From positions 12,850 through 76,849 of the forward strand of contig DHGX01000001.1 of assembly GCA_002402995.1 (NCBI GenBank): 64,000 nucleotides of DNA, written 5' to 3'. Shown here piece after piece: positions 20,083 to 61,877 of this stretch (positions within the stretch are counted from its first letter, which is position 1; each line of letters opens with the position of its first letter). Source of the stretch: Patescibacteria group bacterium UBA4787 (GTDB taxonomy: Bacteria > Patescibacteriota > Patescibacteriia > UBA2591 > UBA4787). Under the pieces are notes generated by a model. The model ran no database searches, was not told the DNA's origin, and saw only the letters and a list, made by a program, of their open reading frames with translations. Both the position numbers and the translations under genes were made by a program.

Positions 20083-20196
20083 TTTATTATCAAGTGAGCG
20101 AGGGAAAAGTAAATTCATTTACTTTTCCGACCTGCCTCGCCGACGCGAGTCAAGGCGGGGCGAGCGAAACAAACACAGGGTTTAATACCCTTTATT
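20083..20196 (-). repeat. family A intergenic repeat, long form, reverse orientation, copy A5
   Basis: Reverse complement of the 11239-11353 type: ttattatcaagtgagcgaggg...cacagggtttaataccctttatt. Confidence 0.8.
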
Positions 20197-20539
20197 CTAA
20201 TTCAAAAACAAGCAGCCCACATTTCTTTATTTTTTCTTTATAGGCGGGAAAACTGTTATACATAGCCCTGAGCTCTTTTTCTGTTTTTAGCTCTGGATTA
20301 ATTTGGCTTGGCTTATAATGTTTAAGCAGCGCTCCGATTGTCGGGAATAGTTGAACCCTTTTAACCAGTTTATCGAATTTTTGTTTTTCGCATATTAATA
20401 CTACGCGATCTCCGGGCTTCATTGTTTTGTATCTTTTCGTAGCGGCGCGCGTTTCAAATTTTTTGCGATTGGTTTTTATCGCGTCGAAAATATCTTTGTT
20501 GATTTTACGAAACCTCAAAATGAATACTTTATTTTCCAT
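20192..20539 (-). CDS. ASCH-domain protein
   Basis: MKPGDRVVL beta-barrel motif typical of ASCH/PUA-like domains. Start trimmed to MENKV. Confidence 0.4.
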   Translation of the reverse strand: MENKVFILRFRKINKDIFDAIKTNRKKFETRAATKRYKTMKPGDRVVLICEKQKFDKLVKRVQLFPTIGALLKHYKPSQINPELKTEKELRAMYNSFPAYKEKIKKCGLLVFELE

Positions 20540-25211: not shown

Positions 25212-26795
25212 TTAGATTAACGGCGTGCCGGTCATTTTCTGTGGTTGTTTAATGCCTATAATTTTTAGAATGGTTGGGGCGATATCAGCTAAAACTCCAA
25301 CGGGCGGCATCAGACTCAAATCAACCTGCGCGCTGTTTCCGCCCTGTATTATTTCATAATCATGACTAACGATTATCAAGGGAACTGGATTATTAGAATG
25401 TTCTTTGTCAATCTCCCCGTTTCTTAAATTAACTAATTCTTCAGCGTTTCCATGATCAGCTGTTATTATTATATTGCCACTTTTTTCTAAAATCGCCAAA
25501 ACGATTTCTCCTAATAATTTATCGACTATTTCTGCGGCTTTAATGGTGGCCTGCAAATTACCCGTGTGCCCGACCATATCTAAATTGGCAAAATTAAGGA
25601 CGATAAAATTATACTTATTAGAAGAAATTGCTTCAATTACTTTTTGTGTCACAATCGGCGCGGACATTTCTGGTTTCTGGTCGTAACTGGCGATGCGGGG
25701 TGAAGGAACCAAAATCCAATCTTCTTTTTCGAACGGCTTCTCTGATCCACCGTTCATAAAATAAGTAACGTGCGCGTATTTTTCTGTTTCCGCGATGTGA
25801 AGCTGCTTGAGGCCTGCCTCGCTGATTACCCTTGCTAGCGGCATAATAATTCTTTCTGGCGGAGAAATAATTTCTACAGGCAGTCCTTCTTCATATTCTG
25901 TCATCGTAGCGAAAAATAAGTTTTTTATTCTTGAACCACGGTCAAATTCAGAAAAATTATTCAGCACGAAAGCTCTAGTGAGTTCGCGCGCGCGATCGGG
26001 GCGGAAATTAAAATAAATTATTGCATCGTTCTCTTGAACCGTCGACAGAGGCAAATCGTCGGCGCCCGAAATAATGGTTGGCTCAAATTCTTCATCAAAA
26101 ATATTGTTTTGATATGAAGCTTTGATCGCCTCTAGCGGATTTTTGGAAAGCTTGCCTTTGCCTATCGTCATTAAACGATAAACTTTTTCAATCCTTTCCC
26201 AATGATTATCCCGATCCATCGCGTAATAACGCCCCGAGAGGCTAGCTATTTTTCCACACTTATAAGATTTTAACTTTTCTTCCAACTCGGCGATAAAAAC
26301 TTTGGCGGAATCTCTAGGTGCGTCACGACCGTCTAAAAAAGCATGGATAAAAATTCTATTAAATTTATGTTGGCTGGCACAATCTATTAAAGAAAAAAGA
26401 TGGTCCGAAGAAGAATGGACATTACCTCGGGAAACTAAACCTATTAAATGAAGATTAGATTTATTTTCTTCGGCGTGTTTGATGGCCTTTAAGATAACTT
26501 CATTTTTTAAAAACTCTCCACTGACAATTAAACGGTTAATTCTAGGTAGGTCCTGGTAAATGATTTTACCAGCGCCGATATTCAAATGTCCAACTTCGGA
26601 ATTACCCATTACGCCCCACGGCAAACCAACCGCCTCGCCTGAGGCCTGAAGAGTAAACGTCGGACAACTGGCCGTCAATTTATTGAAAAACGGGGTTTTT
26701 GCCAAAGTAATGGCATTGCCCTGGCTCGGCGGAGCAACACCCCAGCCATCCAATATAATCAAAGCTGTCAGTCCTTTTGTTTGCTTTTCGACCAT
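25212..26795 (-). CDS. gpmI: 2,3-bisphosphoglycerate-independent phosphoglycerate mutase (iPGM), copy 1
   Basis: ILDGWG, AETEKYAHVTYF and ITADHGNAEE motifs. Confidence 0.85.
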   Translation of the reverse strand: MVEKQTKGLTALIILDGWGVAPPSQGNAITLAKTPFFNKLTASCPTFTLQASGEAVGLPWGVMGNSEVGHLNIGAGKIIYQDLPRINRLIVSGEFLKNEVILKAIKHAEENKSNLHLIGLVSRGNVHSSSDHLFSLIDCASQHKFNRIFIHAFLDGRDAPRDSAKVFIAELEEKLKSYKCGKIASLSGRYYAMDRDNHWERIEKVYRLMTIGKGKLSKNPLEAIKASYQNNIFDEEFEPTIISGADDLPLSTVQENDAIIYFNFRPDRARELTRAFVLNNFSEFDRGSRIKNLFFATMTEYEEGLPVEIISPPERIIMPLARVISEAGLKQLHIAETEKYAHVTYFMNGGSEKPFEKEDWILVPSPRIASYDQKPEMSAPIVTQKVIEAISSNKYNFIVLNFANLDMVGHTGNLQATIKAAEIVDKLLGEIVLAILEKSGNIIITADHGNAEELVNLRNGEIDKEHSNNPVPLIIVSHDYEIIQGGNSAQVDLSLMPPVGVLADIAPTILKIIGIKQPQKMTGTPLI

Positions 26796-26806: not shown

Positions 26807-28423
26807 TTATATAATTAAACTTTTTCCAGTCATTTCTGTCGGCTGCTTAATGCCCATAATTTCCAATACCGTAGGCGCAACATCTCCCAAAACGCCGCCT
26901 TCCCGCAAATGAGCAAATTTATATTTTGGATGAAAAATTATGGCTGGCACCGGATTAATTGAATGCTTGGTGTCAATCTCTCCAGTCTTTAAATTGATCA
27001 TTTCTTCAGCATTTCCGTGATCAGCCGTGATAAAAGCCCAACCGTTCTTGCGCTTTAAAGCTTCCAAAATTTTAGCCAAACATTGGTCAACAACCGTAAT
27101 TCCTTTAACCGCTGCCTCTAAATTTCCAGTGTGACCTAACATATCAGGATTAGCGAAATTAATAACCATAAAATCCGGATCGGCTTTGCGCAAAATTTTT
27201 AAAGCTTCGGCTGTGATTTTGAAAGCGCCCATTTCCGGGACCATATTATAATGTTCAACCGATGGAGATTTAAGCGCGATGCGATTCTCGCCCACCACCG
27301 GGCGATCGTAACCGCCGTTAAAAAAGTAAGTAACGTGCGCGTATTTTTCTGTTTCCGCGATGTAAAATTGGTTCAAACCTTTTAAAACCCAGGGCAGAGT
27401 ATTAATTGGCATTCTGTCTGGATAGGCCGTGTGGATATTGTCTAAATCCGGCCCAAAACTTGTCATAGCCACAAACAACAAATTTTCTAGATATTTTTTT
27501 CGGCGGAAAGAATTCGGATTCATCTTTGTAAAATCTTTTTGCGCGAAAACCTTGGTTAATTCACGCGCGCGATCAGAACGCAAATTCATAAAAATAACCA
27601 CATCGCGATCTTCTACGGTCGCGAGTGGTTTGCTATTTTTATCAACTATGACTGTAGGCTTAACGAACTCGTCGGTTTCGCCGCGATTATAAGCCTGAAC
27701 AATGGCTTCATCTGCTTTTTCCGCGGTCACCTCGCTCCGACCCAAAACAATCGCGTCATAAACTTTCTCGACAACCGGCCAGTTCTTTTTTCGGTCCATT
27801 GCGTAAAATCTTCCGCAAACAGAGGCAATAATAATTTTTTGCTTATCATTAACATGATTATGATTCCGCACCCCGTTAACTTTTCTCTCAAATCTTTTAA
27901 TTAATTTGATGGCGGCGTGTTGCGAAGAATCGCGACCGTCGGTAAACAAGTGAATATAGATATTTTCCACGCCCTCATTTAATAAAAATTTTAACATGGC
28001 CATCCAGTGATCGGGCGAAGAATGGGCGCTGTCATTTTCGGTGATCAATCCCATTAAATGCAATTTTGATTTGTGATATTTGAGATAGTTAATCGCCTCT
28101 AAAAAAATAGGGTTTTTAAAAAAATCTCCATTCTTAATTTCTTCTGTGATCGTCGTATTTTCACTTTCTACTAAGCGACCCGCGCCAATATTTAAATGCC
28201 CGGACTCTGAATTTCCCACTTGCGGATCTGGTAAACCCGCGCAACGACCATGCGCGCAAAGACTTTTAATAGAAGGGTAATTTCTATACAGCCAATTCAT
28301 TGTCTTTGTTTTCGCTAAAGTAACAGCGTTGCCACGATTTGGCGGAGCTATACCCCAGCCGTCTAAGATAACCAGTAAGGCCGGCTCCTTTTTGATTTTT
28401 GATCTCACCAAAGACGAAAACAT
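26807..28423 (-). CDS. 2,3-bisphosphoglycerate-independent phosphoglycerate mutase paralog, copy 2
   Basis: Same motif set (ILDGWG, AETEKYAHVTYFFNGG, ITADHGNAEE) in a diverged sequence, immediately upstream of copy 1. Confidence 0.8.
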   Translation of the reverse strand: MFSSLVRSKIKKEPALLVILDGWGIAPPNRGNAVTLAKTKTMNWLYRNYPSIKSLCAHGRCAGLPDPQVGNSESGHLNIGAGRLVESENTTITEEIKNGDFFKNPIFLEAINYLKYHKSKLHLMGLITENDSAHSSPDHWMAMLKFLLNEGVENIYIHLFTDGRDSSQHAAIKLIKRFERKVNGVRNHNHVNDKQKIIIASVCGRFYAMDRKKNWPVVEKVYDAIVLGRSEVTAEKADEAIVQAYNRGETDEFVKPTVIVDKNSKPLATVEDRDVVIFMNLRSDRARELTKVFAQKDFTKMNPNSFRRKKYLENLLFVAMTSFGPDLDNIHTAYPDRMPINTLPWVLKGLNQFYIAETEKYAHVTYFFNGGYDRPVVGENRIALKSPSVEHYNMVPEMGAFKITAEALKILRKADPDFMVINFANPDMLGHTGNLEAAVKGITVVDQCLAKILEALKRKNGWAFITADHGNAEEMINLKTGEIDTKHSINPVPAIIFHPKYKFAHLREGGVLGDVAPTVLEIMGIKQPTEMTGKSLII

Positions 28424-33268: not shown

Positions 33269-33453
33269 AATGTTTATTCAATTTATAATTTCAAGGGATG
33301 AGCCAAGCCAAAAATTTATTTTTGACTTGCAAAACCCGCAGAAATTTCAAGCTTTGCTTATATAAATAACGAGCCTTTGAAGGGCTCATTATCAAAAATA
33401 ATCTCATAATTTTAGCTAATTGTCAAGAAAATAAAAGATGTATAAATTTAATC

Positions 33454-33535
33454 GCTCCGAACGCTGAACGAAATCTTTACCTCGTAGTTAAACAAAGTTT
33501 ATACTACTGGGGTTCCGCCGCCGCCGAATTCTTGC
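33454..33535 (+). repeat. repeat family D copy 1 (~80 bp, near-exact direct repeat of 37751-37830)
   Basis: gctccgaacgctgaacgaaatctttacctcgtagttaaacaaagtttatactactggggttccgccgc. Contains TTTACC-17nt-TTATACT. Confidence 0.75.
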
Positions 33536-33635
33536 CTTGCCGTAGCCTTGCGTTGTCATTCCGTAGCATTTCGCGAAGGATGGGCAAAGGCAGGTCGTGC
33601 CAGCAAAGCTGGCGCGCCGCTTCTTGTAGATTTTC
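33525..33635 (+). repeat. GC-rich repeat family B copy 2
   Basis: tcgtgccagcaaagctggcgcgccgc hairpin core shared with 8308-8334. Confidence 0.6.
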
Positions 33636-33803
33636 TCTAACCTATACTTGTCGCGACGTTTTTTTAAAAAAACAGCCAATAAAATAAAACACCCGCTTAG
33701 AGCCACAATTGATTTCACGATGACGGTTTGAAAAAGCAACATTTTGGTTCCAAAATCACCCACGAAAAAATCTGGTATTGTCTTTATTTTATTGATTTGT
33801 CGA

Positions 33804-34739
33804 TTAAAGTTCTTTGTCTGGTACGCAACAAGTTCTAGGAGCCGGATCTTTGCATTCAGAAAGTCCAAGAAAACCGCAGCTATGTGTTTCCTCGTAAGAA
33901 CCACAGTCGGTCATCCCTATACTCTTAAACCCCTTGGAACAGGTAGCGCCATTTTGACAAGTTCCTGCCGTACATTTTGTATCATTTACCGCCATACAAC
34001 ACTTTGTTGGTTTTTTCTTGCAACACTTACCAAATCCCCACCAGCATGTTTCACAATCCTCTGCCTCCCCACAATTGGCAGAACCAACATTTTGTGTCCC
34101 CAGAGGACAATCATTGTAAGTGCACATCCCAGTAGCGCAATCGATCACTGGTTTTGAATATTCACAACAAGTGGCAGGCAGGTATTCACAGCATTTTCTT
34201 AAGCCCAAAAAACCACACGAACGGCATTGTTTTTGCGGTTGACAACCAGCTGAACCCTTATTTGTCGCTCCACTCGGACAAACTTTGTCTACGGAGCAAT
34301 ACCCATTACATACTTCCTGAGCAGACGACTCCTGCGGGGCTGTTGACTTGCAACCTTTGGCTTTTACGGCCGCTACTATCCCCGGCATCCTTGATGCCCA
34401 CTTTTCCAAGAACTGGCTTGTTCCCTCACCCCCTCCCAAGCGCTGTGTGTAATATGCCACAAATTCGGCACCGGTCACATTATAAGGCGCTGCCAATTCT
34501 CTAAATTTTTCTTCCGAGATGGATGTTCCTTTGAGACAGACGGAAATGCGTGCCACAATATACAAAGCAATCTCATCTGTCATCTTTCCAGTTGGAGCGG
34601 TCAACAAACTCCCCATCTCTTGTTGGCCAAATAATTGTGTTATATCAAATCCCATTTCGTCAGTGTCTAATTGGGCAAAAACCGTACCGGCAATCAAAAA
34701 TACTACTAAAATCGCAAGAACTAAAAATTTAATTTTCAT
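33804..34739 (-). CDS. secreted cysteine-rich protein (311 aa)
   Basis: Signal peptide MKIKFLVLAILVVFLIAGTVFA. The C-terminal ~180 aa carry more than 35 Cys and a twice-repeated SCGFLGL(R/S)(K/E)C motif. Confidence 0.5.
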   Translation of the reverse strand: MKIKFLVLAILVVFLIAGTVFAQLDTDEMGFDITQLFGQQEMGSLLTAPTGKMTDEIALYIVARISVCLKGTSISEEKFRELAAPYNVTGAEFVAYYTQRLGGGEGTSQFLEKWASRMPGIVAAVKAKGCKSTAPQESSAQEVCNGYCSVDKVCPSGATNKGSAGCQPQKQCRSCGFLGLRKCCEYLPATCCEYSKPVIDCATGMCTYNDCPLGTQNVGSANCGEAEDCETCWWGFGKCCKKKPTKCCMAVNDTKCTAGTCQNGATCSKGFKSIGMTDCGSYEETHSCGFLGLSECKDPAPRTCCVPDKEL

Positions 34740-34765
34740 AAAATGATATATTTACATCTATAATT

Positions 34766-35161
34766 TTAATAATTTCTAGATTCCTGTAGCACTCTTACCA
34801 TTTCCTTAGCGTCAATAAAATCATTTTGAGCGTCTTCTTCGCACCCTTTTTTTCCATAAGGATCAAACGACAAATATTCACAAACATCCGGCCTATCAAA
34901 CTTAGCGCCAAGAATAAGATAACAAAGTCCTGAAAGTCCTATATGCTCGGCCTTGCACATCGCCAGCCCCTCTTCATAAGTTTTGACATCTAACACGCTT
35001 TTCTCATTTGTTTCTCCCGCTGTTTCCCCTTCTTGAGGCGTTACGATTTCCGTATCCGACGTTGGCGTCGGAGCGAGTGTTTCTTGCTTGCCGCAACCAG
35101 CGCCCGCGAGAATCAAAACACCAACCAGAATAAAAGCGATACTAAACATTTTTTTGTTCAT
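34766..35161 (-). CDS. lipoprotein, hypothetical
   Basis: Signal peptide with lipobox LAGAGC, a Thr/Glu-rich linker and four Cys in the globular part. Confidence 0.5.
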   Translation of the reverse strand: MNKKMFSIAFILVGVLILAGAGCGKQETLAPTPTSDTEIVTPQEGETAGETNEKSVLDVKTYEEGLAMCKAEHIGLSGLCYLILGAKFDRPDVCEYLSFDPYGKKGCEEDAQNDFIDAKEMVRVLQESRNY

Positions 35162-35187
35162 ATATGTTCTGTTAATTAAAAATAAGA

Positions 35188-37557
35188 TTAATAAGTTACA
35201 TCTAAAAACGCTTTGCTTAGATTACCAACGGAAAAAGTCATGACCAAAAAATAACCCGGTTTATACATTGTCAGTTGATTACTACCTTCATCTTGCGCTT
35301 TATAATCAATCCCAATTAAATATTTTTTCACTGCTGTTAAATCATCTTTAATAATGACGCGATCAAACATATAGCGAAGCATTGCTCCACCCATATTGTC
35401 TGTCGTCTTTACTTTATTATTATACAACTGATTTAAAATTGGCAAAAGATCATTGTGGACCATTTTGCTTTTGTCATTAATCAGCTCCGCGGGAATCGCT
35501 TTTTCATAATTTATCTGTGGCCAAGTTCTGGGTGTTGCCGATGTGTCGGTGATATTTTGCAAAGGGGTATCATAAGTGGAAATAGAAGGTGCGATTGGAC
35601 ACAGGGTTTCTTTTGAATTTTTATACGAAGCAAAAACCTTTATTTTAAACTTTTTATAAAGAGCCAATTCTGGTTTTCGTTTCGTTAAATTAACTAAATA
35701 AGGCTCTACTTGCACAATCAAATTGTTGGAAATGGTGTATGGCGTCATCAACTCTGTAATGATATTGCCACTATAATTTATAATCCAATTTTTATTGTCT
35801 TTAACATTGCCACTCCCATCCAATTTCATCAAGAAGCCATCTTTATAATAAGTAATGCTGTCTAGTATAACCGATTGAATATCAGTAGAAGTATATCCAC
35901 CGGCAATAATGGCCCCACTGTCCGCAGTTGCGCGTACTGCATAATTTGTCGCCTCGCGCTGGGGATTGATTATTTTGGCCCAACTAACATTTAAATCCTG
36001 ATCAATTTTGGTCATAAAAATACCAGAACGAAATGCGTCTTGGGCTATTTTAAGAACCGCTCGAACTTTTTTATAATCCTCTCGCGATTCTTTTGTTTTG
36101 TCTTTTTCCTCTTTTGACATTTCTATTTCCCCATATTTTTCATTGTACCATTTTACCTGCTCATTGGCGGTTTTCATCTTTGCCCTATAATCATAATCAG
36201 CCCAAGTAATAGGACCCACTATTATCACCTTCTTATCAGTTGTCAAAGAAACAGAAAATTCTGTTACTGGAGCAGTAAACTCATTAAAACCTAAAGTCAT
36301 TTTTTTAACCCACTCTAAATTACCAGAAGAACTAAACTTAAACGCGATCAAATAGCCCTTCACCGGCGCTGCTAAATCTAAACTATTAGTCAATAAAGAT
36401 AACCCGCCAGACCACTGCCCCAAAACAAGATAACCTTTATCCTCTGTCCTCACTATGCCTTTAGGTACGATTGCTCCTTGACGCACTTTTTTCCAGCCCA
36501 ACTCAAATCCTCCGCCAGCTTTGGGAATAGCTGCCGCCATGTCTAGTGGTATACCTTCCATGCTTTTTGCCCATTCAAAATTAAAATCTTTATCAAACTT
36601 TACCAAGCCTGGGTAGGTATCAAAATTATATGGCAGTTCTTTTTCTGGGTTTGTTTCAGTTACGTTTCCGGTCAAGACATATCCTCCGTCAACCGTAGTG
36701 GTGAGATAGGTGACGCTCTTCCTAGAAATAAAATTTTTAATATTCTTTGACCACTGTAAATTACCAACCTGATCAAATTTTAAAACTTTAAGCGAGGCAA
36801 ATGGCATATCCTGATAAACATCAGGATCTTCTCCTCTTTTGTCGGGGTCTAGATCAAGAATATTCGCATAAAACAAAAAACCTTTGTCAGTAGTTTCCAA
36901 CAAAGAATTTCTGGCGTCCTCAACAAATCCAGTAAATGATTTGTTCCAAATCATGTTGCCATTTTTGTCTAATTTGGTGAACAAAATCTTGTTTACTTCC
37001 ACGCCTGCTTCTGATTCTGCTACGTTGATAAAACCCCAAACCTTGGAAGCCATTAAATAACCGCCGTTTTTCAATTCAATAATTGATTGTACGTCTTCCT
37101 TGCCCAATGGATTCAACATAGCCATGCCGCCAGATGCATTTTTGGTTTTCAAAAACTTCATCCACTGCACATTGCCTTGTTTATCCATTTTAGCCACAAA
37201 GCCATCTGGCGGGATAAACATAATATTGGGGTCGGTTATGCCGGAAACAATATAACCCCCATCTTTAGTTGGCCAAGCGCCATTGATTTTTGTAAACGCC
37301 AAAAGGCGGTATGATTTCAAAAAAGTTGTATTTGAAAGAGGTATTGTTTCTGCACCATTAACGCAACTTAGCCCTGCATTAACAGCCTGAATTAAATAAT
37401 CTCCGTCATTTGCTCGCGCTATATCCAATGCTGTTGCGAAATTTGGTAAAAAACATTGTTTGAAAATGGATAAATTTAGAATAACGATGACAAAAACTAC
37501 CGCCACTATGAGTAATAGGGGAAGTAAAAGATAATATTTTTTTAATGCAAATCGCAT
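35188..37557 (-). CDS. large secreted/membrane-anchored seven-bladed beta-propeller repeat protein, hypothetical
   Basis: N-terminal hydrophobic anchor from MRFALKKYYLLLPLLLIVAVVFV. Seven spaced D-x-x-G-N-x-x-W-x-K motifs (DKQGNVQWMK, DKNGNMIWNK, DQVGNLQWSK, DKDFNFEWAK, SSSGNLEWVK, DQDLNVSWAK, DGSGNVKDNKNW). Confidence 0.55.
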   Translation of the reverse strand: MRFALKKYYLLLPLLLIVAVVFVIVILNLSIFKQCFLPNFATALDIARANDGDYLIQAVNAGLSCVNGAETIPLSNTTFLKSYRLLAFTKINGAWPTKDGGYIVSGITDPNIMFIPPDGFVAKMDKQGNVQWMKFLKTKNASGGMAMLNPLGKEDVQSIIELKNGGYLMASKVWGFINVAESEAGVEVNKILFTKLDKNGNMIWNKSFTGFVEDARNSLLETTDKGFLFYANILDLDPDKRGEDPDVYQDMPFASLKVLKFDQVGNLQWSKNIKNFISRKSVTYLTTTVDGGYVLTGNVTETNPEKELPYNFDTYPGLVKFDKDFNFEWAKSMEGIPLDMAAAIPKAGGGFELGWKKVRQGAIVPKGIVRTEDKGYLVLGQWSGGLSLLTNSLDLAAPVKGYLIAFKFSSSGNLEWVKKMTLGFNEFTAPVTEFSVSLTTDKKVIIVGPITWADYDYRAKMKTANEQVKWYNEKYGEIEMSKEEKDKTKESREDYKKVRAVLKIAQDAFRSGIFMTKIDQDLNVSWAKIINPQREATNYAVRATADSGAIIAGGYTSTDIQSVILDSITYYKDGFLMKLDGSGNVKDNKNWIINYSGNIITELMTPYTISNNLIVQVEPYLVNLTKRKPELALYKKFKIKVFASYKNSKETLCPIAPSISTYDTPLQNITDTSATPRTWPQINYEKAIPAELINDKSKMVHNDLLPILNQLYNNKVKTTDNMGGAMLRYMFDRVIIKDDLTAVKKYLIGIDYKAQDEGSNQLTMYKPGYFLVMTFSVGNLSKAFLDVTY

Positions 37558-37750
37558 ACTTTTTATATTATAACACAATGCCGTAATTATACCACAATTT
37601 TGAGCTAAAAATTTTTTGGGCAAACAAAAGGGAGTTCCTTAGCGTTGCCCACGAATGGGCGGGGTACGCTTCGCTCCGGGGTATAAACTTCGAATCCTCT
37701 TCTATATATAATATAATAAAAAAGACGGGATATGCCCATCTTTTTTATTA

Positions 37751-37830
37751 TGCTCCGAACGCTGAACGAAATCTTTACCTCGTAGTTAAACAAAGTTTAT
37801 ACTACTGGGGTTCCGCCGCTGCCAAATTTT
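37751..37830 (+). repeat. repeat family D copy 2
   Basis: ~72 bp identical to 33454-33525. Lies between the beta-propeller gene start and the zinc-ribbon gene end. Confidence 0.75.
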
Positions 37831-37879
37831 GCACCGTCTTTTTTATATTTTGTTTTTCAGACAAAATATAAAAATAATT

Positions 37880-39487
37880 TTACTCTCGAACAAGAGTCCC
37901 TTCGTCGACACAGTATATAATATCTCCTGGTTTGCCCATAATATATTTTACTTTCACCGAGATTTTTCCTTGAAAGTTATAGAATTGATATGTATAAGTA
38001 AACCCTTCATAATCTAATCTTACGAACCCAGAGTCATTAATTATGCCACTCCCGGTATAAGGCACGCCAGCAACAGTATCCCAAATAAGTTTATTATTTT
38101 CTACCATAAAAGATGATTGTTTTTGCGATTTTTCTGTTCTATCGGCTTCTCCTATAATACCCTTTATAGCACAGACCGAGTTTACTATGCCGGGATATAT
38201 TCCATCCCAAATTCCGCCTTGTTTTTTGACTGGCTCCGGAGCGGCGATTGGTTTGCCTTGTTGAACTGTGCCTTGTCCGCCTTCTTTATGCCCGCCTTCG
38301 GCTGTTGGTTTGCTGGGTGCAGCACCAGTTTGACTAGTATTCGTGTCGGATTGAATCGAATTTTCAACCGGCGTGCCCAGCGCAAAATAAATTTCCTGAT
38401 ATTCTTTATCCCATTGGAAAAGCGTCAGACCTTCGGTCCCCTCAGCGAAACCAATTGCCGAAGCGGCGATTTCGTTAGTTGATTGCACAGCATCCTCCAC
38501 ACAATATTTACGGGTGGTCTCATTCCCTGTGCTCGCGCCGCCGGCGCCAATACAAATGGTTCGCTTGGATACATTATCATAAGAATAATTGGCCAAAGTT
38601 TCCGCGTATTTGGCGGCCTGGTCTTTAATATCAGTTTGTTCTCCTGTCGCACTATCTTCGGGCGTGATCTCTTTCTGGCACCTGACTTCGCAACCATATT
38701 GCTTTCTTAATTTATTTGTCCAGCGGACTTTATAGAAATCGGGGAAGTCGCAAACCAAACAGGTTACATCCATGCCTTTGATACTTGGAACCGGCTCAAG
38801 CCCGCTTGAGCTGGCAGCAAAAGCCGCTGCCACTGGATTAAAAGCTACGGAATCGCTACGCGAATGAAGTATGGCGTTTAGCCAATGCTCTTCAATCAAT
38901 AACTTAGCTCCAATTTTTAGCATGGCTTCGCGGTCTTTGTTTGCAATAGCAGAATCCCCTGATGTTTTTAAGTCCGCGACGCTTCTTATAATTGGCTTAA
39001 AAAGATTATAGGCTTTAGCTTCGCTTATTAATAACGGAAAGTCGTCTGGTTGATTTTTTAGTTTTTTCCATTCTTTTTTATCTTCCGCGGCCGCGGCGAT
39101 TCTAATAGACCACAAAATGGCGGCGGCTTGATAATTTTTCAACTCATCCGGCACCGACAATTCAGCCAAATTTTTTGCGGTCGTGATGGCTGTTATTTGT
39201 ATGGAGTCCATCGTCGCCCCTGTCTTTTTTCCCGCCATAATAAAATCACCGCCTTTTTTAGCAGTCGCAATCTCCGCCAGATTGGACTGAATACCCGCCA
39301 CCGCATCATTAAATTGTTTATCAAGGGAAATGGCTAAAAAAACTATGCCAGCCAGTAGAACGAACACAATTGGAATAATTATCCAGAGTAAGCGGCGATG
39401 TTTTTTCTTACGCGCAAACTCCGCACCGCATTTTCTGCAGAATTTAGGATACCACCAGTTGAATTTGCCACATTTTGGACAGCGCAT
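37880..39487 (-). CDS. zinc-ribbon-anchored membrane protein with large extracytoplasmic domain, hypothetical
   Basis: MRCPKCGKFNWWYPKFCRKCGAEF zinc ribbon, a TM helix LLWIIIPIVFVLLAGIVFLAI, and a ~470 aa external domain with a Gln/Gly/Pro-rich linker. Confidence 0.55.
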   Translation of the reverse strand: MRCPKCGKFNWWYPKFCRKCGAEFARKKKHRRLLWIIIPIVFVLLAGIVFLAISLDKQFNDAVAGIQSNLAEIATAKKGGDFIMAGKKTGATMDSIQITAITTAKNLAELSVPDELKNYQAAAILWSIRIAAAAEDKKEWKKLKNQPDDFPLLISEAKAYNLFKPIIRSVADLKTSGDSAIANKDREAMLKIGAKLLIEEHWLNAILHSRSDSVAFNPVAAAFAASSSGLEPVPSIKGMDVTCLVCDFPDFYKVRWTNKLRKQYGCEVRCQKEITPEDSATGEQTDIKDQAAKYAETLANYSYDNVSKRTICIGAGGASTGNETTRKYCVEDAVQSTNEIAASAIGFAEGTEGLTLFQWDKEYQEIYFALGTPVENSIQSDTNTSQTGAAPSKPTAEGGHKEGGQGTVQQGKPIAAPEPVKKQGGIWDGIYPGIVNSVCAIKGIIGEADRTEKSQKQSSFMVENNKLIWDTVAGVPYTGSGIINDSGFVRLDYEGFTYTYQFYNFQGKISVKVKYIMGKPGDIIYCVDEGTLVRE

Positions 39488-39491
39488 ATTT

Positions 39492-39689
39492 TTATTTTAT
39501 TAAATCATCAATGCTAACCCCAAGAGCTTTCGCAATTTTCTTGAGAGTATTAAGCGTTGGATTCTGGTTTTTGCCAGCTTCTATTTTGATAATTGTATTA
39601 TTGGCGACATCGGCTAATCTCGCCAATTTTTCTTGGGATAACCCTTTGGCTTCCCTAAGTTTTCTAAGTGTTTTTGTAATGTTTGACAT
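39492..39689 (-). CDS. XRE-family helix-turn-helix transcriptional regulator (65 aa)
   Basis: LRKLREAKGLSQEKLARLADVANNTIIKIEAGK matches the Cro/C1 HTH. Ends 4 nt before the zinc-ribbon gene start. Confidence 0.7.
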   Translation of the reverse strand: MSNITKTLRKLREAKGLSQEKLARLADVANNTIIKIEAGKNQNPTLNTLKKIAKALGVSIDDLIK

Positions 39690-39953
39690 ACTAATATAGT
39701 AGTAGTAGTAGAATCAAAGTATCAGTAATATTACCTTTCAACTACTTTAATGTTAGACCAAAAAATAAAAATTGTAAACAGGCGGCGCATTTTGCAAAGC
39801 GAAATACGAAATTCGGCGGCGGAACGGAGCATCAAAAAACCCTTCGCAAGAAGGGTTTTTGTATTTGGCTCCCCTGATGGGACAATCTGCCTCGCTGGCA
39901 AGGCGGATCCGCCTCGCCGACGCGAGTCAAGGCGGGTTAGATATTTTTTAAAA

Positions 39954-40037
39954 TGGGCGAGAGAGGACTCGAACCTCCAAGGGATTGCTCCCACTAGCTC
40001 CTAAAGCTAGCGCGTCTACCAATTTCGCCACTCGCCC
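39954..40037 (-). tRNA. tRNA-Leu (anticodon TAG), long variable arm
   Basis: Hand-folded: acceptor GGGCGAG/CTCGCCC, anticodon stem CTAGC/GCTAG with loop TTTAGGA, variable arm TGGGAGCAATCCCTT, T loop TTCGAGT. Confidence 0.8.
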
Positions 40038-40142
40038 AATTACAACATAAAATATAATTCGTGAAAAAGAAAATAATAATAACTAAACAGCTGTTCGTCG
40101 ATATTTTAATTGTAATTTTGTAAAAACCGAGCCTAGAATAAA

Positions 40143-40289: not shown

Positions 40290-40680
40290 TCTAAATTCTA
40301 GTTTATAACAACAAATTTGTAAATTTTTACAATATCTTTCTGAAGTTTAGAGGTGTCTATTCCTCTTTTTCGCAATATCTTTTCTACCAACCCCAGAGCT
40401 TTAAGATATTTTTGTTGGTTTTTCTTTAATTATGATTAGTCAAATTAGTTAAACGATTAAAAAACTTCTGCCAAAAAGTATATTTCTTCTGACACTCCTT
40501 GGCATATTTCAAATTCAAATCTTTAAAATTCTCTTGGTATCTACTTAATATTTTTAATAATTTGCTCTTTTTTTCTTCGTCGAAAAAATGGAGGTTTTTT
40601 AATATACCTTCTTTTTCTTCGTTAGTTAGAAGAAAAGTATCCGTGACTAATAATTCTAAATTTAAATTGACATTGTCCAT
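40290..40680 (-). pseudogene. decayed partial duplicate of the 3' end of the adjacent 823-aa gene
   Basis: The 84-aa ORF 40426..40680 (LTNEEKEGILKNLHFFDEEK) is paralogous to residues ~700-730 of the large protein (LSDDERDKIFKDHFLFLISENK). DNA 40300-40420 aligns to 40693-40830. Confidence 0.4.
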
Positions 40681-40692: not shown

Positions 40693-43164
40693 TTACTTGT
40701 TAATAATTTTTCTGAGTTTGGCGATATCCTTTTGCAAATTAGAGGTATCTACTCCCTTTTTTCTTAAAACCTTCTCAACAATAACCAGTGATTTAAGATA
40801 TTTCTGCTGATTCTCCGGCGACCAAGATTTTATTTTCGCTTCCCATCTCACCGGATCTTCAAAAAGCGAATTGATAAGAGAAACGAAAAATTCTGACGGG
40901 TTTGAAAACGGATGACCCTCAGCAGCTGGATCATCGAAAAATTTATTTTCTGAAATTAAAAATAAAAAATGGTCTTTAAAAATTTTATCTCTTTCGTCGT
41001 CGGACAAATCTTTATTTTCCAAAACTTTTTCTAATAACCTCGACAGGTCTTCGCTTTCTTGCTTAAACAACAACGCAAAAGCACCGTGCTCAGAACAATA
41101 ATGGTCGTCCGGGTTTGTCGTATTTGGTCCCAGACTCCAATCAAGCTTGTGCAGAGCCTCATGACGACCAACTAAACGATAAATAACTTTAGCGCCACGC
41201 AATGCTCGACCCTCTACCACCAAAGACCTGACTGTTAAAAATATTGATCTCTCATTTTTGGCGCCGTTGAAATAGGCGTTATCGACATCTATGTCGCCAC
41301 CTACATAAAAACTTCTAATGTTCCAATTATGATTAAAATATTCTTCTAGTTGGGTGATGCCATATGCCGTTTCTTCCAATGCTTTCATATATTGTTCTCT
41401 GCCTATACTCTGAAAGGTTTGCAAGGTATCTATGTCAGTAACATAAAAATTCAAATTATAGGCCTCCTTGTTTGCCTTATTCTCGACGGAAATATTGCCC
41501 ATATAAAATGCCGGCATTTGCTCAAACGAAAGCTTGCCCGCTATTTTCCCTTTCTCGTTTTTTATAACTAAATCAACAATCTGATCTTGTGAAACTGCGT
41601 CAACCGAACCACCGACATTATGATCTTGCCCAAGCTCAAATTTCTGAACATTTTTTTGACCTGAATCGTTATATGATGACTGGAGGCGACTATTTATTTC
41701 TACGCTGTATCCCCTGGGTAAAGAAAATTTTAAACCATACAGCTTGCCGTCAATTTTGATGGGTTGTTTTAATTGATTAACCCCTAGGTCTAAATTAAAA
41801 TTATAATAAATACCGCCCGACAAGACACAAATTCCTAAATTTATGTTTTGAATCAAATTTGCGCCTTTTTCTAAATTTCCTCTTTCTCCTTCGGTTAAAA
41901 GATCGTATTTTTTCTGGTCAACTGATATCTTACAATCATTCGCCAAAACAGCCACATTATTTAAATTTTCTATATTTTTATCATTTTTAATCTGCGCAAC
42001 AATCTGGTTAAGAATATAAGTATTTATTTGTTCGGGAGTACAATCCTTATAGTCTTCAAATTTTTGGGGATCGAAGGGAACCCTAATTTGCGCTTTAATC
42101 GTTTTATTTTTCAAATCGAGAATAGTGAAGGTCAAAATAACATTTGGCGCTTTATCATTCATACACGGATTGGAAATAATCACATAACGATTGTTATAGG
42201 GCTTTCGGGTTAAAGTCTCGGGGAGTAATTGACTCTGCGTAAATTTATTAGATAGATATTCATTTTTTCTGGACTCGCTCCACCACTCCCAATAAGCTGT
42301 AAAATAATTATTTTGTTCGTAAAATTTTTCTAGTTCATTCAGTTTGGCAATTATCCTCGGATCGTCAGAATAGTCGTTAGTATTCTCCATGCCTCTTAGA
42401 AAGACGGCGTTTTCGTTCCATTCTGAATCACTAGTATATTGGAATATTTCCAACAAGTCTCTAACAGAAAAATATAAATAACTGCTGTTCAATTTATCAT
42501 TTTTTTCGACGGGAAACTCTTTAACTAGTCCCGCCTCTATCTTAGAATCTAAAGATGGGGTTTTAATCTTTGACTCCATCTGCGATTCTGGAGTTTGTTT
42601 TGTTTCAGGCTCTTTTTGTCCGACTTCCTGGGCAAATAATTTTTGGGATTTGATTGCCGAAGTCGTAGACAACATTAAAAATAGAGTCGCTAAGCGCAAA
42701 AATCTATTTCCGGCGATCTGATTAAAAATAATATTGCGCTTTTGGGTTGATTCTATCACCGGAACTTCGTTTACCGGCAAAACTTCGTGAGGCGACGTAT
42801 TAACTTGCGCCACTAAATTTTTTGCCGAGGATTGAGCCAATGTGACCACATCTTCTTTCTTGACAATGAAACTTTCTTCCGATAATTTCTGACGGCCGAG
42901 CTTGGTTAATTCGGTAAGTTCGTTTTTATATTTATCTAAAATTTTTCTTTGTTCCAATTTCATATCCAATTCTGTCGCGGCGAAAATCTCAACTAATTTC
43001 AATCTCGTTTCCGAGTCTAGATCGGGATCTCTCGTTACCGCGTCAAAAATATTGTCCGCTATTCTTACAAGCGCTTCAAGGTGTTCAAAATTCTGTTGAT
43101 CTTTCTCCGGTTGCTCCGGCGAAGACTCAACAAAAGATTTTAATTCTATTTCTTTATTCATCAC
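40693..43164 (-). CDS. large membrane-anchored protein (823 aa) with C-terminal HExxH zinc-metallopeptidase-like motif, hypothetical
   Basis: Coiled-coil N-terminus, hydrophobic anchor FLRLATLFLMLSTTSAI, a long Asn/Lys-rich middle region, then LVGRHEALHKLDW...DDHYCSEHGAF. Confidence 0.55.
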   Translation of the reverse strand: MMNKEIELKSFVESSPEQPEKDQQNFEHLEALVRIADNIFDAVTRDPDLDSETRLKLVEIFAATELDMKLEQRKILDKYKNELTELTKLGRQKLSEESFIVKKEDVVTLAQSSAKNLVAQVNTSPHEVLPVNEVPVIESTQKRNIIFNQIAGNRFLRLATLFLMLSTTSAIKSQKLFAQEVGQKEPETKQTPESQMESKIKTPSLDSKIEAGLVKEFPVEKNDKLNSSYLYFSVRDLLEIFQYTSDSEWNENAVFLRGMENTNDYSDDPRIIAKLNELEKFYEQNNYFTAYWEWWSESRKNEYLSNKFTQSQLLPETLTRKPYNNRYVIISNPCMNDKAPNVILTFTILDLKNKTIKAQIRVPFDPQKFEDYKDCTPEQINTYILNQIVAQIKNDKNIENLNNVAVLANDCKISVDQKKYDLLTEGERGNLEKGANLIQNINLGICVLSGGIYYNFNLDLGVNQLKQPIKIDGKLYGLKFSLPRGYSVEINSRLQSSYNDSGQKNVQKFELGQDHNVGGSVDAVSQDQIVDLVIKNEKGKIAGKLSFEQMPAFYMGNISVENKANKEAYNLNFYVTDIDTLQTFQSIGREQYMKALEETAYGITQLEEYFNHNWNIRSFYVGGDIDVDNAYFNGAKNERSIFLTVRSLVVEGRALRGAKVIYRLVGRHEALHKLDWSLGPNTTNPDDHYCSEHGAFALLFKQESEDLSRLLEKVLENKDLSDDERDKIFKDHFLFLISENKFFDDPAAEGHPFSNPSEFFVSLINSLFEDPVRWEAKIKSWSPENQQKYLKSLVIVEKVLRKKGVDTSNLQKDIAKLRKIINK

Positions 43165-44324: not shown

Positions 44325-44488
44325 GTAGTAATTTTTATAATTAGTGAACGGAGGAACAAATAAAAAAAATTTTATTTGATTCCGTAGCGAGCCAACTTCA
44401 CGAGCGAGACAAGTATAGTTTCCATGTGATGGGCTCTTGACTTTTGTTCAATTTCTGCTTAAATTTTGACAGCTCATTAAAAAAATAA

Positions 44489-44576
44489 AAATAAAGGATA
44501 TTAAACCCTATGTTATCCGCGCTCGCTCGGAAAATGAAAATGAAATTTTCTTTTCACTCGCTCACTTGATAATAAA
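44489..44576 (+). repeat. family A intergenic repeat, short form, copy A6
   Basis: aataaaggatattaaaccctatgttatccgcgctcgctcgg...cactcgctcacttgataataaa. Immediately followed by the AGGAGG RBS of ftsH. Confidence 0.8.
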
Positions 44577-47858: not shown

Positions 47859-48063
47859 TTTATTATCAAGCGAGCGAGGGAAACGAGAAACGAAGTTTTT
47901 CATTTCCGACCACGCCCGACTTCGCCTTGAGTGATTTTTAAAAACAGTCTTTCTAAACTAATATTTGCGGGGGGGGTTCGGTACTTCGCTATTACTGCGC
48001 GGAACGGCGAACTCAAGGCGGGCGGGGCGAGAGCAGATAACACAGGGTTTAATGCCCTTTATT
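47859..48063 (-). repeat. family A intergenic repeat, reverse orientation, carrying a nested ~80-bp insertion, copy A7
   Basis: Canonical ends (ttattatcaagcgagcgaggg ... cacagggtttaatgccctttatt). Inverted repeats cgccttgagt/actcaaggcg flank an extra segment containing a G8 tract. Confidence 0.7.
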
Positions 48064-48750
48064 TAATGCCCAGAGAAATCCCATTTTTTTGTCAAAATGC
48101 GATGGGAAAATCTCTGTACTAAACTTATTTTTCCGTAATTTGCTTTCGATGATTTTAAAATCTTTATTCTTACTGCTGATATGATATTCCATAATTATAG
48201 CTTGAATTTTTAAAAAGTCATTAAAATTCAAACTTTCAAAAATTTTATATTCCGCGCCCTCTATGTCCATTTTTAACAAAGAAATTCGGCTAATTTGATG
48301 TTGAGCTAAAAAATCAGTTAGACTGAAAACCTTAACACGTTGAACGGTGACAAAAGAATCATCTAAAAAATCGTCTACTAAATGATGATTGTGGTTATCG
48401 CTGGAAATAATTAAATTACCTTCGCCAGTTTTATCGCTCAAGGCCGCGGATACAATTTCAATATTCTTAAGATTATTTTCCTTGATATTCTGTTTTAAAA
48501 TCTTTAGATTATCTGCTTCCGGTTCAACGGCATAAATTTTGGCCTGTTTATTTAAAGACCTGCAATATAAACTGAAGAGCCCAATATGACTGCCCACATC
48601 CAATATTGAATTCTCGGCGCTAACAATCTGTTCTTCGGCCCTACGATATTCTTTAAATTTAAAAATTTCGTTAAAAACGCTTCGGTCAACTTGATCACGT
48701 AAATAAACTTGCCAAGAATGATTATTAAATTTGAGAGAAATCTTTTCCAT
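48049..48750 (-). CDS. FkbM-family methyltransferase
   Basis: LDVGSHIGLFSLY SAM-binding motif and overall FkbM-like layout. The last codons lie in repeat A7. Confidence 0.55.
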   Translation of the reverse strand: MEKISLKFNNHSWQVYLRDQVDRSVFNEIFKFKEYRRAEEQIVSAENSILDVGSHIGLFSLYCRSLNKQAKIYAVEPEADNLKILKQNIKENNLKNIEIVSAALSDKTGEGNLIISSDNHNHHLVDDFLDDSFVTVQRVKVFSLTDFLAQHQISRISLLKMDIEGAEYKIFESLNFNDFLKIQAIIMEYHISSKNKDFKIIESKLRKNKFSTEIFPSHFDKKMGFLWALNKGH

Positions 48751-55318: not shown

Positions 55319-55339
55319 TTGTCTTAAAATATATGAAAT

Positions 55340-61758: not shown

Positions 61759-61877
61759 TTATTAAATCATAAAAATATCAAAAAATTCACTTCTTTGCTG
61801 TCGCATTTTATTAAATAACTAAATAAAAATATGACCATCAAAATTTTGGCTTCGTCTTCCAACATCTGCTTTTCGCT

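What the first reader, a model, noticed from the sequence alone, without database searches (positions are those of the whole stretch)
33454..39689. XRE-regulated secreted/surface protein module bracketed by 80-bp direct repeats
Five co-oriented genes follow one another on the minus strand:
- a 65-aa XRE HTH regulator,
- a zinc-ribbon-anchored membrane protein with a ~470-aa external domain,
- an ~790-aa seven-bladed beta-propeller protein with a signal anchor,
- a lipoprotein,
- a 311-aa secreted protein with more than 35 Cys and a repeated SCGFLGL(R/S)xC motif.

None has a recognisable enzymatic domain. Together they look like a cell-surface recognition or adhesion module of the kind expected for an episymbiotic lifestyle.

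The three distal genes are bracketed by near-exact 72-80 bp direct repeats (33454, 37751). Each repeat contains a plus-strand promoter-like TTTACC-17nt-TTATACT that would drive antisense transcription into the module. This hints at recombination-mediated amplification or excision of the cassette, or antisense control.
Basis: partly seen in the sequence, partly recalled or inferred. Interest (0 to 1): 0.65.

Follow-up and report, generated by a model that had tools for sequence, protein, structure and literature searches.

The report
Shared repeat ending two surface-gene units
In a tiny groundwater bacterium, two neighbouring sets of exported cell-surface genes each end with the same 77-base non-coding element, inside a genome stretch that relatives fill with other genes; this points to ordinary gene shuffling, not a single regulated five-gene machine.

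Summary
Five minus-strand genes and a 77-nt direct repeat (33454-33530 / 37752-37828; 68 nt identical) are real and recur in independent assemblies.

The genome is a Candidatus Magasanikbacteria (CPR) genome.

- **Variable segment.** The five genes fill the gap between tRNA-Leu(UAG) and an ABC-F gene. The closest syntenic relative fills that gap with two unrelated genes.
- **Two separable units.** Unit 1 is XRE plus a zinc-ribbon membrane protein. Unit 2 is a propeller, lipoprotein and Cys-rich operon. A terminator and a promoter lie between them.
- **What the repeat is.** It is the 3' end element of each unit, with the layout B block, hairpin, C block. The same element follows the zinc-ribbon orthologue in a Portnoybacteria contig and the propeller orthologue in another Patescibacterium. 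In each of those loci it was found once, not as a bracket.
- **Conservation.** Blocks A, B and C are 97.5-100% conserved. The hairpins between them change by compensatory substitutions.
- **Gene transfer.** 1.3 kb of the zinc-ribbon gene is 97.6% identical to the Portnoybacteria gene, but its C-terminal domain is swapped.
- **Antisense promoter.** It is no better than background and is not conserved.

Best reading: a REP-like 3' extragenic element that the two copies share through gene conversion. A cassette recombination site remains possible. Interest is moderate to low.

The parts
33454..33530 (-). Repeat copy 1. In minus sense it reads B block (33530-33513, AATTCGGCGGCGGCGGAA), AT-rich hairpin (33512-33480), then C block (33474-33454, ATTTCGTTCAGCGTTCGGAGC).
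   Evidence: The B and C blocks are identical to those in L092.
33531..33689 (-). Upstream part of the composite 3' element of the propeller operon. It contains the A block (33689-33611), the hairpin GCCAGC-TTT-GCTGGC (33613-33599), and a 60-nt GC-rich insert (v1).
   Evidence: The A block is 97.5% identical over 80 nt to L092 12284-12363, while the adjacent gene is 81% identical. The hairpin stem is re-written by compensatory changes in L092. The ORF called here (33491-33763, 91 aa) has no homologue among 1.84 billion proteins.
33804..34739 (-). Secreted Cys-rich protein, 311 aa. It has a Sec signal ending VFA|Q and 30 Cys, 28 of them in the last 172 residues.
   Evidence: The AlphaFold2 model is poor (pLDDT 54).
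34766..35161 (-). Small lipoprotein, 131 aa, with the lipobox-like signal LAGAG|C.
   Evidence: Homologous N-termini follow the propeller gene in L094, L095, L098 and L099.
35188..37557 (-). Signal-anchored seven-bladed beta-propeller protein, 789 aa. It has a helical insertion at 457-507 and a C-terminal alpha/beta domain at 590-789.
   Evidence: The best Foldseek match in the PDB is CylK 7roo (E 7e-14, 14% identity).
37586..37594 (-). Extended -10 promoter element (TGGTATAAT) of the propeller operon.
   Evidence: It is conserved upstream of the propeller gene in L092 and L102. The window-L092 homology starts at 37610.
37610..37751 (-). Intrinsic terminator (37751-37713) followed by a GC-rich block. 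This region is homologous to the sequence that follows tRNA-Asn in L027.
37752..37828 (-). Repeat copy 2. It carries a variant B block (AATTTGGCAGCGGCGGAA), then the hairpin and C block. It lies 51 nt after the ZnR535 stop codon and directly before the terminator.
   Evidence: The variant B block and the hairpin also follow the ZnR535 orthologue in L104.
37880..39487 (-). Zinc-ribbon, single-pass membrane protein, 535 aa. It has a conserved ectodomain, a Pro/Gly-rich linker, and a polymorphic C-terminal domain after the motif GGIWDG (residues 429-535).
39492..39689 (-). XRE-family HTH protein, 65 aa. Its stop codon lies 4 nt before the ZnR535 start codon.
39810..39830 (+). Short inverted copy of the element: B block minus one CGG unit, plus the last 5 nt of C. 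It lies between the tRNA terminator (39834-39860) and the promoter-like sites upstream of XRE (39750-39798).
39953..40038 (-). tRNA-Leu(UAG), the conserved left boundary of the variable segment.
33358..33438 (-). Conserved ABC-F promoter and leader, the right boundary of the variable segment. Homology to relatives resumes here, 15-25 nt from repeat copy 1.
   Evidence: (L012, L014, L021, L024).

Best explanation
**Anatomy (shown).** The region is a replacement-type variable segment between tRNA-Leu(UAG) and the ABC-F gene of a Magasanikbacteria genome. It is assembled from two independent transcription units that encode exported envelope proteins.
- Unit 1 is XRE plus ZnR535. ZnR535 is a membrane-anchored protein whose first 428 codons are near-identical to a Portnoybacteria gene and whose C-terminal domain is swapped.
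- Unit 2 is the propeller, lipoprotein and Cys-rich operon. It is a cluster kept in many Patescibacteria, in changing neighbourhoods.
- Each unit ends in a copy of one lineage-specific non-coding element: B block, hairpin, C block. In unit 2 this is preceded by an A block and a second hairpin.
- The '77-nt direct repeat' is these two unit-end copies.

**History (inferred).** The element was attached to each unit before the species split. The 68-nt identity of the two copies within this genome comes from recent gene conversion or crossover between them.

**Mechanism (inferred, weakest step).** The element lies in the 3' untranslated region, ahead of the terminator. It probably acts like a REP/BIME-type extragenic hairpin element, protecting or defining the 3' end of the transcript. 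As a conserved DNA flank it would also supply downstream homology, which lets surface-protein units or C-terminal cassettes be exchanged by recombination.
For: 1. **Variable segment.** The closest syntenic relative, L012 (ABC-F 93% aa), keeps tRNA-Gly, p823, p84, two tRNA-Leu genes, ABC-F, the zinc-finger gene and NUDIX. Between tRNA-Leu(UAG) and ABC-F it carries a 272-aa and an 87-aa gene, and none of the five genes.
2. **Separate units.** A terminator and a promoter lie between them. The propeller family has 68 close clusters. The eight other contexts examined all differ and all lack XRE and ZnR535.
3. **The element belongs to each unit.**
   - After the propeller stop in L092 lie A (97.5% over 80 nt), B (18/18) and C (21/21). 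The segments between them are unrelated.
   - After the ZnR535-orthologue stop in L104 lie the variant B block and the hairpin.
   - B-block variants follow the gene, not the genome. AATTC.. occurs in copy 1 and L092. AATTT.. occurs in copy 2 and L104.
   - Hairpin and C are identical between the two window copies.
4. **Hairpins are under selection.**
   - The inner stem TAAAC/GTTTA becomes GAACGC/GCGTTC in L104.
   - The stem GCCAGC/GCTGGC becomes GCCCCG/CGGGGC in L092.
   - No pair is broken.
5. **Non-coding.** The ORF over A-B has no homologue and is not intact in L092.
6. **Position.** Copy 2 sits between the stop codon and the terminator.
7. **Repeat-rich genome.** At least 9 copies of another mosaic hairpin repeat occur in the 64 kb, and their modules are shared with this locus.
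8. **Recombination and transfer at the locus.**
   - 1.3 kb is 97.6% identical to the Portnoybacteria contig, with sharp breakpoints.
   - The GC content of that segment is 45.7%, against 38.6% for the window.
   - A deleted p823 paralogue leaves a remnant.
Against: - Only two full copies and one short copy were seen in 64 kb. The element was found in only two other species among 1.4 Mb of related loci. A REP-like, many-copy family is therefore not shown.
- The element as a whole folds no better than shuffled sequence (z -0.2 to -1.0).
- The near-100% conservation of the A, B and C blocks across species is stronger than expected for a plain stabiliser hairpin. It hints at a sequence-specific protein or recombinase site.
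- No transcript data exist.
- Copy 1 has no clear terminator after it.
- The comparison rests on one syntenic relative and on short contigs. L104 ends inside the element.
Confidence: 0.5

Rival explanations
1. The B-hairpin-C element is a site-specific recombination (att-like) site for recombinase-less cassettes. Under this reading the propeller cassette inserted as a circle into the copy behind ZnR535, which left direct repeats. It could excise again using a recombinase encoded elsewhere.
For: - Repeat boundaries are sharp, and the mismatches are confined to one end.
- The cassette occupies different contexts in different genomes, twice directly downstream of a tRNA.
- Conserved sequence blocks flank structure-conserved hairpins, as in attC sites.
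- The element accompanies a gene that has crossed between CPR classes.
- A third, inverted partial copy flanks unit 1.
- Small insertions with duplicated tRNA 3' ends occur in relatives.
Against: - No integrase or transposase family appears among the genes within about 10 kb on either side.
- The L092 cassette has a single downstream copy and none upstream.
- B-block variants track the gene, which suggests long residence rather than a fresh integration.
- B and C are not complementary to each other, and no GTTRRRY core site lies at the boundaries.
- The hairpin's inner arms vary in sequence while keeping their pairing. A recombinase arm site would not tolerate that.
Confidence: 0.2
2. One reading: each repeat carries a plus-strand promoter (TTTACC-N18-TATACT) that drives an antisense RNA into the module.
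For: The motif is present in both copies. On the plus strand after copy 1 lies a GC-rich stretch of about 150 nt that ends in a T-run at 33658-33665.
Against: - The match scores 9/12. It is one of 32 promoter-like sites in 7.1 kb, against 19 +/- 4 in shuffles.
- The motif lies in the hairpin segment, which is replaced in L092 and re-written in L104 so that TATACT is lost.
- After copy 2 there is no comparable downstream RNA.
- Rfam gives no hit.
Confidence: 0.06
3. A type I toxin-antitoxin-like pair. The 84-91-aa ORF (33491-33763) has a transmembrane helix and a basic tail and would be the toxin. An antisense RNA from the repeat would overlap its 3' end.
For: The ORF begins with a hydrophobic helix followed by KKRRDKYRLEKIYKKRR. 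A convergent promoter-like site exists. The length difference between the window and L092 is a multiple of 3 (60 nt).
Against: - No homologue exists among 1.84 billion representative proteins.
- In L092 the N-terminal half and the start codon are missing, and a 1-nt indel breaks the reading frame. Yet the nucleotide blocks stay 97.5-100% identical.
Confidence: 0.03
4. The repeat is a degenerate tRNA gene, or a duplicated tRNA 3' end from a classical tRNA-targeted island.
For: The island abuts tRNA-Leu. The C block occupies the same position as the 3' end of tRNA-Asn in L027, and the downstream sequence is homologous.
Against: - ARAGORN at default settings and Rfam find nothing.
- The relaxed ARAGORN call is noise, with 29 calls in the window and 35 in a shuffle.
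- Neither tRNA-Leu 3' end is duplicated anywhere in the window.
- The C block does not match the window's own tRNA-Asn.
Confidence: 0.02
5. The repeat is an assembly artefact.
For: None beyond the general risk with metagenome assemblies.
Against: The same four junctions appear in a JGI assembly, an NCBI genome and Logan unitigs of several runs. The repeat is shorter than a typical read, so the gene order is resolvable.
Confidence: 0.01

Closest known systems
REP/BIME repetitive extragenic palindromes (Enterobacteria, Pseudomonas)
   Same: Both lie outside genes at 3' ends. Both are imperfect palindromes that keep their pairing through compensatory change. Both show mosaic combinations of modules, and copies are homogenised within a genome. 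They can act as transcript 3' stabilisers and as recombination substrates.
   Different: Only 2-3 copies were seen here. The long A, B and C blocks are conserved in sequence across species. No RAYT-type gene was seen. Copies are not arranged as inverted pairs.
Integron gene cassettes with attC sites, including integrase-less attC clusters
   Same: Co-oriented gene units each end in a similar element. That element has conserved ends and a variable centre that conserves structure.
   Different: No IntI gene is present. No R''/R' (RYYYAAC/GTTRRRY) cores are present, and the two ends do not pair. The units have their own promoters and terminators.
Replacement flexible genomic islands (e.g. PMC4033161) and the genomic islands and gene transfer reported among Patescibacteria (PMC12455944)
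   Same: A fixed chromosomal site between conserved flanks holds different surface-related genes in close relatives. The transfer partners are other Patescibacteria.
   Different: Here the inserted units carry a shared non-coding end element. Only one syntenic comparator is available.
Polymorphic C-terminal-domain proteins (CdiA, Rhs, LXG-type toxins; variable-tip adhesins)
   Same: ZnR535 is 97% identical to its orthologue up to a short motif (GGIWDG). It is 27% identical in the last 107 aa. Across the family the C-terminal domains are unalignable.
   Different: There is no immunity-like gene downstream, no known toxin domain, and no orphan C-terminal cassettes in the 64 kb.
SBBP / DUF5122-type seven-bladed beta-propellers (CylK 7roo; Leptospira LipL53 family)
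   Same: Both have seven repeats with a K-x-D-x-x-G-x-x-x-W signature. CylK is the best structural neighbour (E 7e-14).
   Different: Identity to CylK is 14%, and scores fall below every curated family threshold. The CylK N-terminal Ca-binding domain is not matched. This protein adds a helical insertion and a 200-aa C-terminal domain. No catalytic assignment can be made.

Membership tests
XRE-family HTH regulator | Cro/C1-type helix-turn-helix domain scoring above the Pfam threshold | tested here: met
   HTH_3 scores 68.1 bits against a cut-off of 23.
   A terminator and promoter lie between ZnR535 and the propeller. The propeller clusters in 8 other contexts lack XRE. L104 lacks XRE.
Seven-bladed SBBP/DUF5122 beta-propeller | Seven blades or sequence repeats | tested here: met
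   The AlphaFold2 model (pLDDT 85.5) has about 28 strands between residues 76 and 543. Seven K-x-D-x-x-G-N-x-x-W repeats appear among the alignment's invariant columns.
Seven-bladed SBBP/DUF5122 beta-propeller | Match to the curated family profile above its threshold | tested here: not met
   No Pfam hit. NCBIfam LipL53 scores 28.5 bits against a cut-off of 400.
Bacterial lipoprotein | Signal peptide ending in a lipobox with an invariant Cys | tested here: met
   The N-terminus reads MNKKMFSIAFILVGVLILAGAG|C. GAGC is conserved in the homologues. This is a pattern match by eye, not a predictor result.
Integron cassette / attC | IntI integrase adjacent to the array | tested here: not met
   No recombinase family appears among the genes called within about 10 kb on either side.
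Integron cassette / attC | End-to-end hairpin with R''/R' core sites (GTTRRRY at the cassette junction) | tested here: not met
   B and C are not complementary. Folding z is about -0.2. No GTTRRRY lies at the boundaries.
tRNA-targeted integrative island | Lies next to a tRNA gene and is absent from a close relative | tested here: met
tRNA-targeted integrative island | Direct repeat derived from the tRNA 3' end, plus an integrase gene | tested here: not met
   The tRNA-Leu 3' ends are not duplicated. The repeat is not tRNA-like. No integrase was seen.
REP/BIME-like extragenic repeat | Extragenic imperfect palindrome at gene 3' ends, with pairing kept by compensatory change | tested here: met
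REP/BIME-like extragenic repeat | Many dispersed copies per genome; an associated RAYT transposase | not testable with these tools
   Only 64 kb of the genome is held, with 2 full copies and 1 short copy.
Diversity-generating retroelement (TR/VR pair) | Repeat pair with one copy in a coding 3' end, adenine-specific mismatches, and a reverse transcriptase nearby | tested here: not met
   Both copies are non-coding. The mismatches are C/T and G/A. No reverse transcriptase appears among the neighbouring genes.
Type I toxin-antitoxin | Conserved small hydrophobic toxin ORF | tested here: not met
   No homologue. The ORF is broken in L092.
Polymorphic toxin / C-terminal swapping protein | Conserved body with an abruptly divergent C-terminal domain | tested here: met
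   97% versus 27% identity. The nucleotide breakpoint is at about 38207.
Polymorphic toxin / C-terminal swapping protein | Downstream immunity gene, or a recognisable toxin domain | tested here: not met
   Only 51 nt separate the stop codon from repeat copy 2. No family hits. No orphan C-terminal cassettes.

The most novel reading that the evidence does not exclude
The A / B-hairpin-C element would be a new kind of cassette-end recombination site. A host or trans-acting recombinase would use it to move surface-protein units, and to swap the C-terminal domain of ZnR535, between chromosomal sites near tRNA genes and even between classes of Patescibacteria (Magasanikbacteria and Portnoybacteria).
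Probability: 0.13. Interest if true: 0.75.

Novelty: new member of a known kind. Interest (0 to 1): 0.38.

Why it matters
CPR/Patescibacteria are thought to live attached to other cells, so how their envelope proteins vary matters for host range. This locus shows three things concretely:
- A conserved propeller-centred surface operon that relocates between genomes.
- A membrane protein whose body has moved very recently between CPR classes while its tip domain was replaced.
- A strongly conserved non-coding element that travels with both.

If the element proves to be a recombination site, it would explain how such streamlined genomes, which have few mobile-element genes, still shuffle surface genes. 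If it is only a 3' stabiliser hairpin, the finding is an ordinary variable islet.

Tried and rejected
**Searches that gave nothing new.**
- A metagenome scan for the repeat core gave 0 hits.
- A scan for the A block found only the contig already held.
- Viral scans for the A block, the propeller and ZnR535 gave nothing.
- Rfam at gathering and at relaxed thresholds gave only tRNAs.
- Profiles found no sequence relatives in the PDB.
- PHROGs and PADLOC matched only the HTH domain.
- Two literature searches found no description of such repeats in Patescibacteria.

- The AlphaFold2 model of the Cys-rich protein was too poor to search with.
- No covariance model was built. MAFFT put the L104 inner stem out of register, and motif searches had already found no further copies in 1.4 Mb of loci.

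**Ideas rejected.** A degenerate tRNA, a tRNA-end att duplication, a DGR pair, an integron attC site, a type I toxin, orphan C-terminal cassettes, and pseudogene remnants of the downstream genes seen in other clusters.

Full report
**Observation.**
The window holds five co-oriented minus-strand ORFs: XRE (39492-39689), ZnR535 (37880-39487), the propeller (35188-37557 from the ATG that gene callers also use), a small lipoprotein (34766-35161) and a Cys-rich protein (33804-34739).
- A 77-nt direct repeat lies at 33454-33530 and 37752-37828. Identity is 75/77. The first 68 nt are identical, and both mismatches lie at the high-coordinate end. Chance expectation is zero.
- Outside these 77-81 nt the flanks are unrelated.
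- The same genes and the same four repeat/flank junctions recur in a JGI contig and in Logan unitigs of at least six runs. Those unitigs break inside the repeat, as expected for a true repeat longer than k.
- Small corrections: the Cys-rich protein has 30 Cys, not more than 35. SCGFLGLxxC occurs twice. The promoter-like motif has an 18-nt spacer and scores 9/12.

**Proteins.**
- XRE is a clear HTH_3 protein.
- ZnR535 has an N-terminal CxxC...CxxC ribbon, one hydrophobic segment, and about 480 external residues.
- The propeller model is confident (pLDDT 85.5, pTM 0.82). It shows an N-terminal helix, a disordered linker, seven blades that match seven K-x-D-x-x-G-N-x-x-W repeats, a helical insertion, and a C-terminal alpha/beta domain.
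- Its best PDB neighbour is the propeller enzyme CylK (E 7e-14, 14% identity, TM 0.37). The remaining hits are generic propellers.
- Pfam, NCBIfam, PHROGs and PADLOC name nothing apart from a sub-threshold SBBP/LipL53 match.
- So 'exported, no recognisable enzyme domain' stands. An enzymatic propeller is not excluded.
- The Cys-rich model is unreliable.

**Where the locus sits.**
- ABC-F relatives identify the organism as Candidatus Magasanikbacteria.
- Only one relative, L012 (ABC-F 93% aa), is syntenic on both sides. It has tRNA-Gly, p823, p84, a second p823 paralogue, tRNA-Leu(UAA), tRNA-Leu(UAG), then a 272-aa and an 87-aa gene, then ABC-F, the zinc-finger gene and NUDIX.
- None of the five genes is present in L012 at this site.
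- Homology to L012 and to other relatives resumes at window 33430-33439, in the ABC-F promoter. That is 15-25 nt from repeat copy 1.
- The five genes are therefore a replaceable filling between conserved flanks.
- No integrase or transposase family appears among the genes called within about 10 kb on either side. The tRNA-Leu 3' ends are not duplicated.

**Two units, not one module.**
- Between ZnR535 and the propeller lie repeat copy 2, a 17-bp-stem intrinsic terminator (37751-37713) and a TGGTATAAT promoter (37594-37586). The promoter is conserved upstream of propeller orthologues.
- The propeller family has 68 close clusters in Patescibacteria at 49-81% identity.
- Eight other contexts were examined. 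In each the gene lies in a different neighbourhood and never with XRE or ZnR535.
- In those contexts it is often followed by the small lipoprotein, the Cys-rich protein (three of the eight), a roughly 200-aa membrane protein and a MamF/MmsF-like protein.
- In L092/L093 and in L102 it directly follows a tRNA and its terminator.

**What the repeat is.**
- Downstream of the L092 propeller gene (81% nt identity to the window) lies an 80-nt block that is 97.5% identical to window 33689-33611 (block A).
- An 18-nt block identical to the B end of the repeat follows. After 207 unrelated GC-rich nt comes a 21-22-nt block identical to the C end.
- Between A and B, the window hairpin GCCAGC-TTT-GCTGGC is replaced in L092 by GCCCCG-CAGTGGC-CGGGGC. 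The window also carries an extra 60 nt.
- After the stop codon of the ZnR535 orthologue in L104 the sequence reads AAAATTTGGTGGCGGCGGAAAGCCCCAGTAGTAGAACGCCTTGCGTTCACTACGGGG. This is the copy-2 type B block followed by the same hairpin. The outer stem is unchanged, and the inner stem is re-written from TAAAC/GTTTA to GAACGC/GCGTTC.
- So the 77-nt repeat is B + hairpin + C, a conserved 3' element attached to each unit in other species as well.
- B-block variants follow the gene: AATTC in copy 1 and L092, AATTT in copy 2 and L104. Hairpin and C are identical between the two copies within this genome. That pattern is what gene conversion or a crossover within hairpin-C would give.
- In the L092 locus the element was found once, downstream only.
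- A third, short, inverted copy (B minus one CGG, plus GGAGC) lies at 39810-39830, between the tRNA terminator and the XRE promoter.
- No other copy was found in 1.4 Mb of related loci.

**Coding or RNA gene?**
- The 91-aa ORF that gene callers place over A-B has no homologue in 1.84 billion proteins. It is not intact in L092.
- Rfam finds nothing.
- The element as a whole folds no better than shuffles.
- ARAGORN finds no tRNA. A relaxed call is noise.
- The plus-strand promoter-like site lies in the non-conserved hairpin segment and is at background level.

**Recombination at the locus.**
- ZnR535 is 97% identical over residues 1-428 to a protein of Portnoybacteria genomes (P0139, OIO48614.1). 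It is only 27% identical in the last 107 residues.
- At the DNA level, window 39513-38207 is about 97.6% identical to L104. Identity then falls to about 60-65%, and rises to 82% at the B-hairpin.
- The upstream breakpoint lies in the last seven codons of XRE, which L104 otherwise lacks.
- The shared part has 45.7% GC, against 38.6% for the window and 36.1% for the swapped tail.
- Across 23 family members the ectodomain stays 43-63% identical, while the tail after GG(I)WDG is 7-41% identical or unalignable.
- No silent tail cassettes occur in the window.
- A deleted p823 paralogue leaves a 3' remnant at about 40290-40425.
- Gene transfer among Patescibacteria and genomic islands in them have been reported (PMC12455944).

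**Conclusion.**
- The repeats are real, but they are the shared 3' end elements of two separable surface-protein units inside a replaceable segment.
- I favour a REP/BIME-like 3' extragenic element homogenised by gene conversion (0.5).
- An att-like cassette site is the main rival (0.2). It is kept alive by the unusually strict conservation of blocks A, B and C and by the element's association with transferred genes.
- Antisense control, a toxin-antitoxin pair, a tRNA origin and an assembly artefact are unlikely.

Noticed in passing
window 4852-4945, 5601-5725, 8513-8610, 11230-11352, 20083-20201(-), 44481-44576, 47859-48064(-), 55223-55320, 56201-56249: A dispersed extragenic repeat family of about 95-205 nt. 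Copies read AATAAAGGGTATTAAaCCCTGTGTT ... nested GC-rich hairpin modules ... CTCGCTCACTTGATAATAAA. At least 9 copies occur in 64 kb, in both orientations relative to the flanking genes. There is no Rfam match. This is unusual repeat density for a streamlined genome.
   Followed up: partly
window 39906-39936; also 5647-5677, 11276-11306, 20129-20159: The hairpin module CCCGCCTTGACTCGCGTCGGCGAGGCRG from the dispersed family also lies just 3' of tRNA-Leu(UAG). A second module, TCGTGCCAGCAAAGCTGGCGC, occurs at 8308-8338 and inside the A/hairpin junction at 33595-33625. Intergenic regions here appear to be mosaics of shared hairpin modules.
   Followed up: partly
L027 2716-2842 and window 37665-37756; L012 6075-6200: In L027, a 17-nt duplicate of the tRNA-Asn 3' end (AATCCGACCCTGGGAGC) flanks an insert of about 93 nt. 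That insert is homologous to the window sequence just after repeat copy 2. In L012, the tRNA-Leu(UAG) 3' end (GAGTCCCTCCyCCAGCATTTTTA) is duplicated about 100 nt downstream. These look like miniature insertions into tRNA 3' ends.
   Followed up: partly
window 38207-39513: 1.3 kb, covering the body of ZnR535, is 97.6% identical at the DNA level to a contig whose protein is 99% identical to Portnoybacteria proteins. This points to a very recent transfer between CPR classes. The breakpoints are sharp, and the segment has raised GC content (45.7%).
   Followed up: yes
window 40693-43164 (p823) and 40290-40425: p823 is an 823-aa protein with an internal hydrophobic segment, an HEALH (HExxH) motif and no family match. 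In L012 a second paralogue follows p84. In the window only its last 45 or so codons survive as a remnant after p84.
   Followed up: partly
window 33358-33438: The ABC-F promoter (TTGACA-17-TGAGATTAT) and a leader hairpin (GAGCCCTTCAAAGGCTC) are conserved in several Magasanikbacteria relatives. This may be an attenuator of the kind known for ABC-F resistance genes.
   Followed up: no
window 25747-25815 / 27312-27380: A 69-nt repeat at 84% identity lies inside two tandem paralogous genes for cofactor-independent phosphoglycerate mutase (538 and 527 aa in the annotation of L001).
   Followed up: no
window 60931-60976 / 61839-61884: A 46-nt inverted repeat, 91% complementary, with arms 862 nt apart. 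Its nature is unknown.
   Followed up: no
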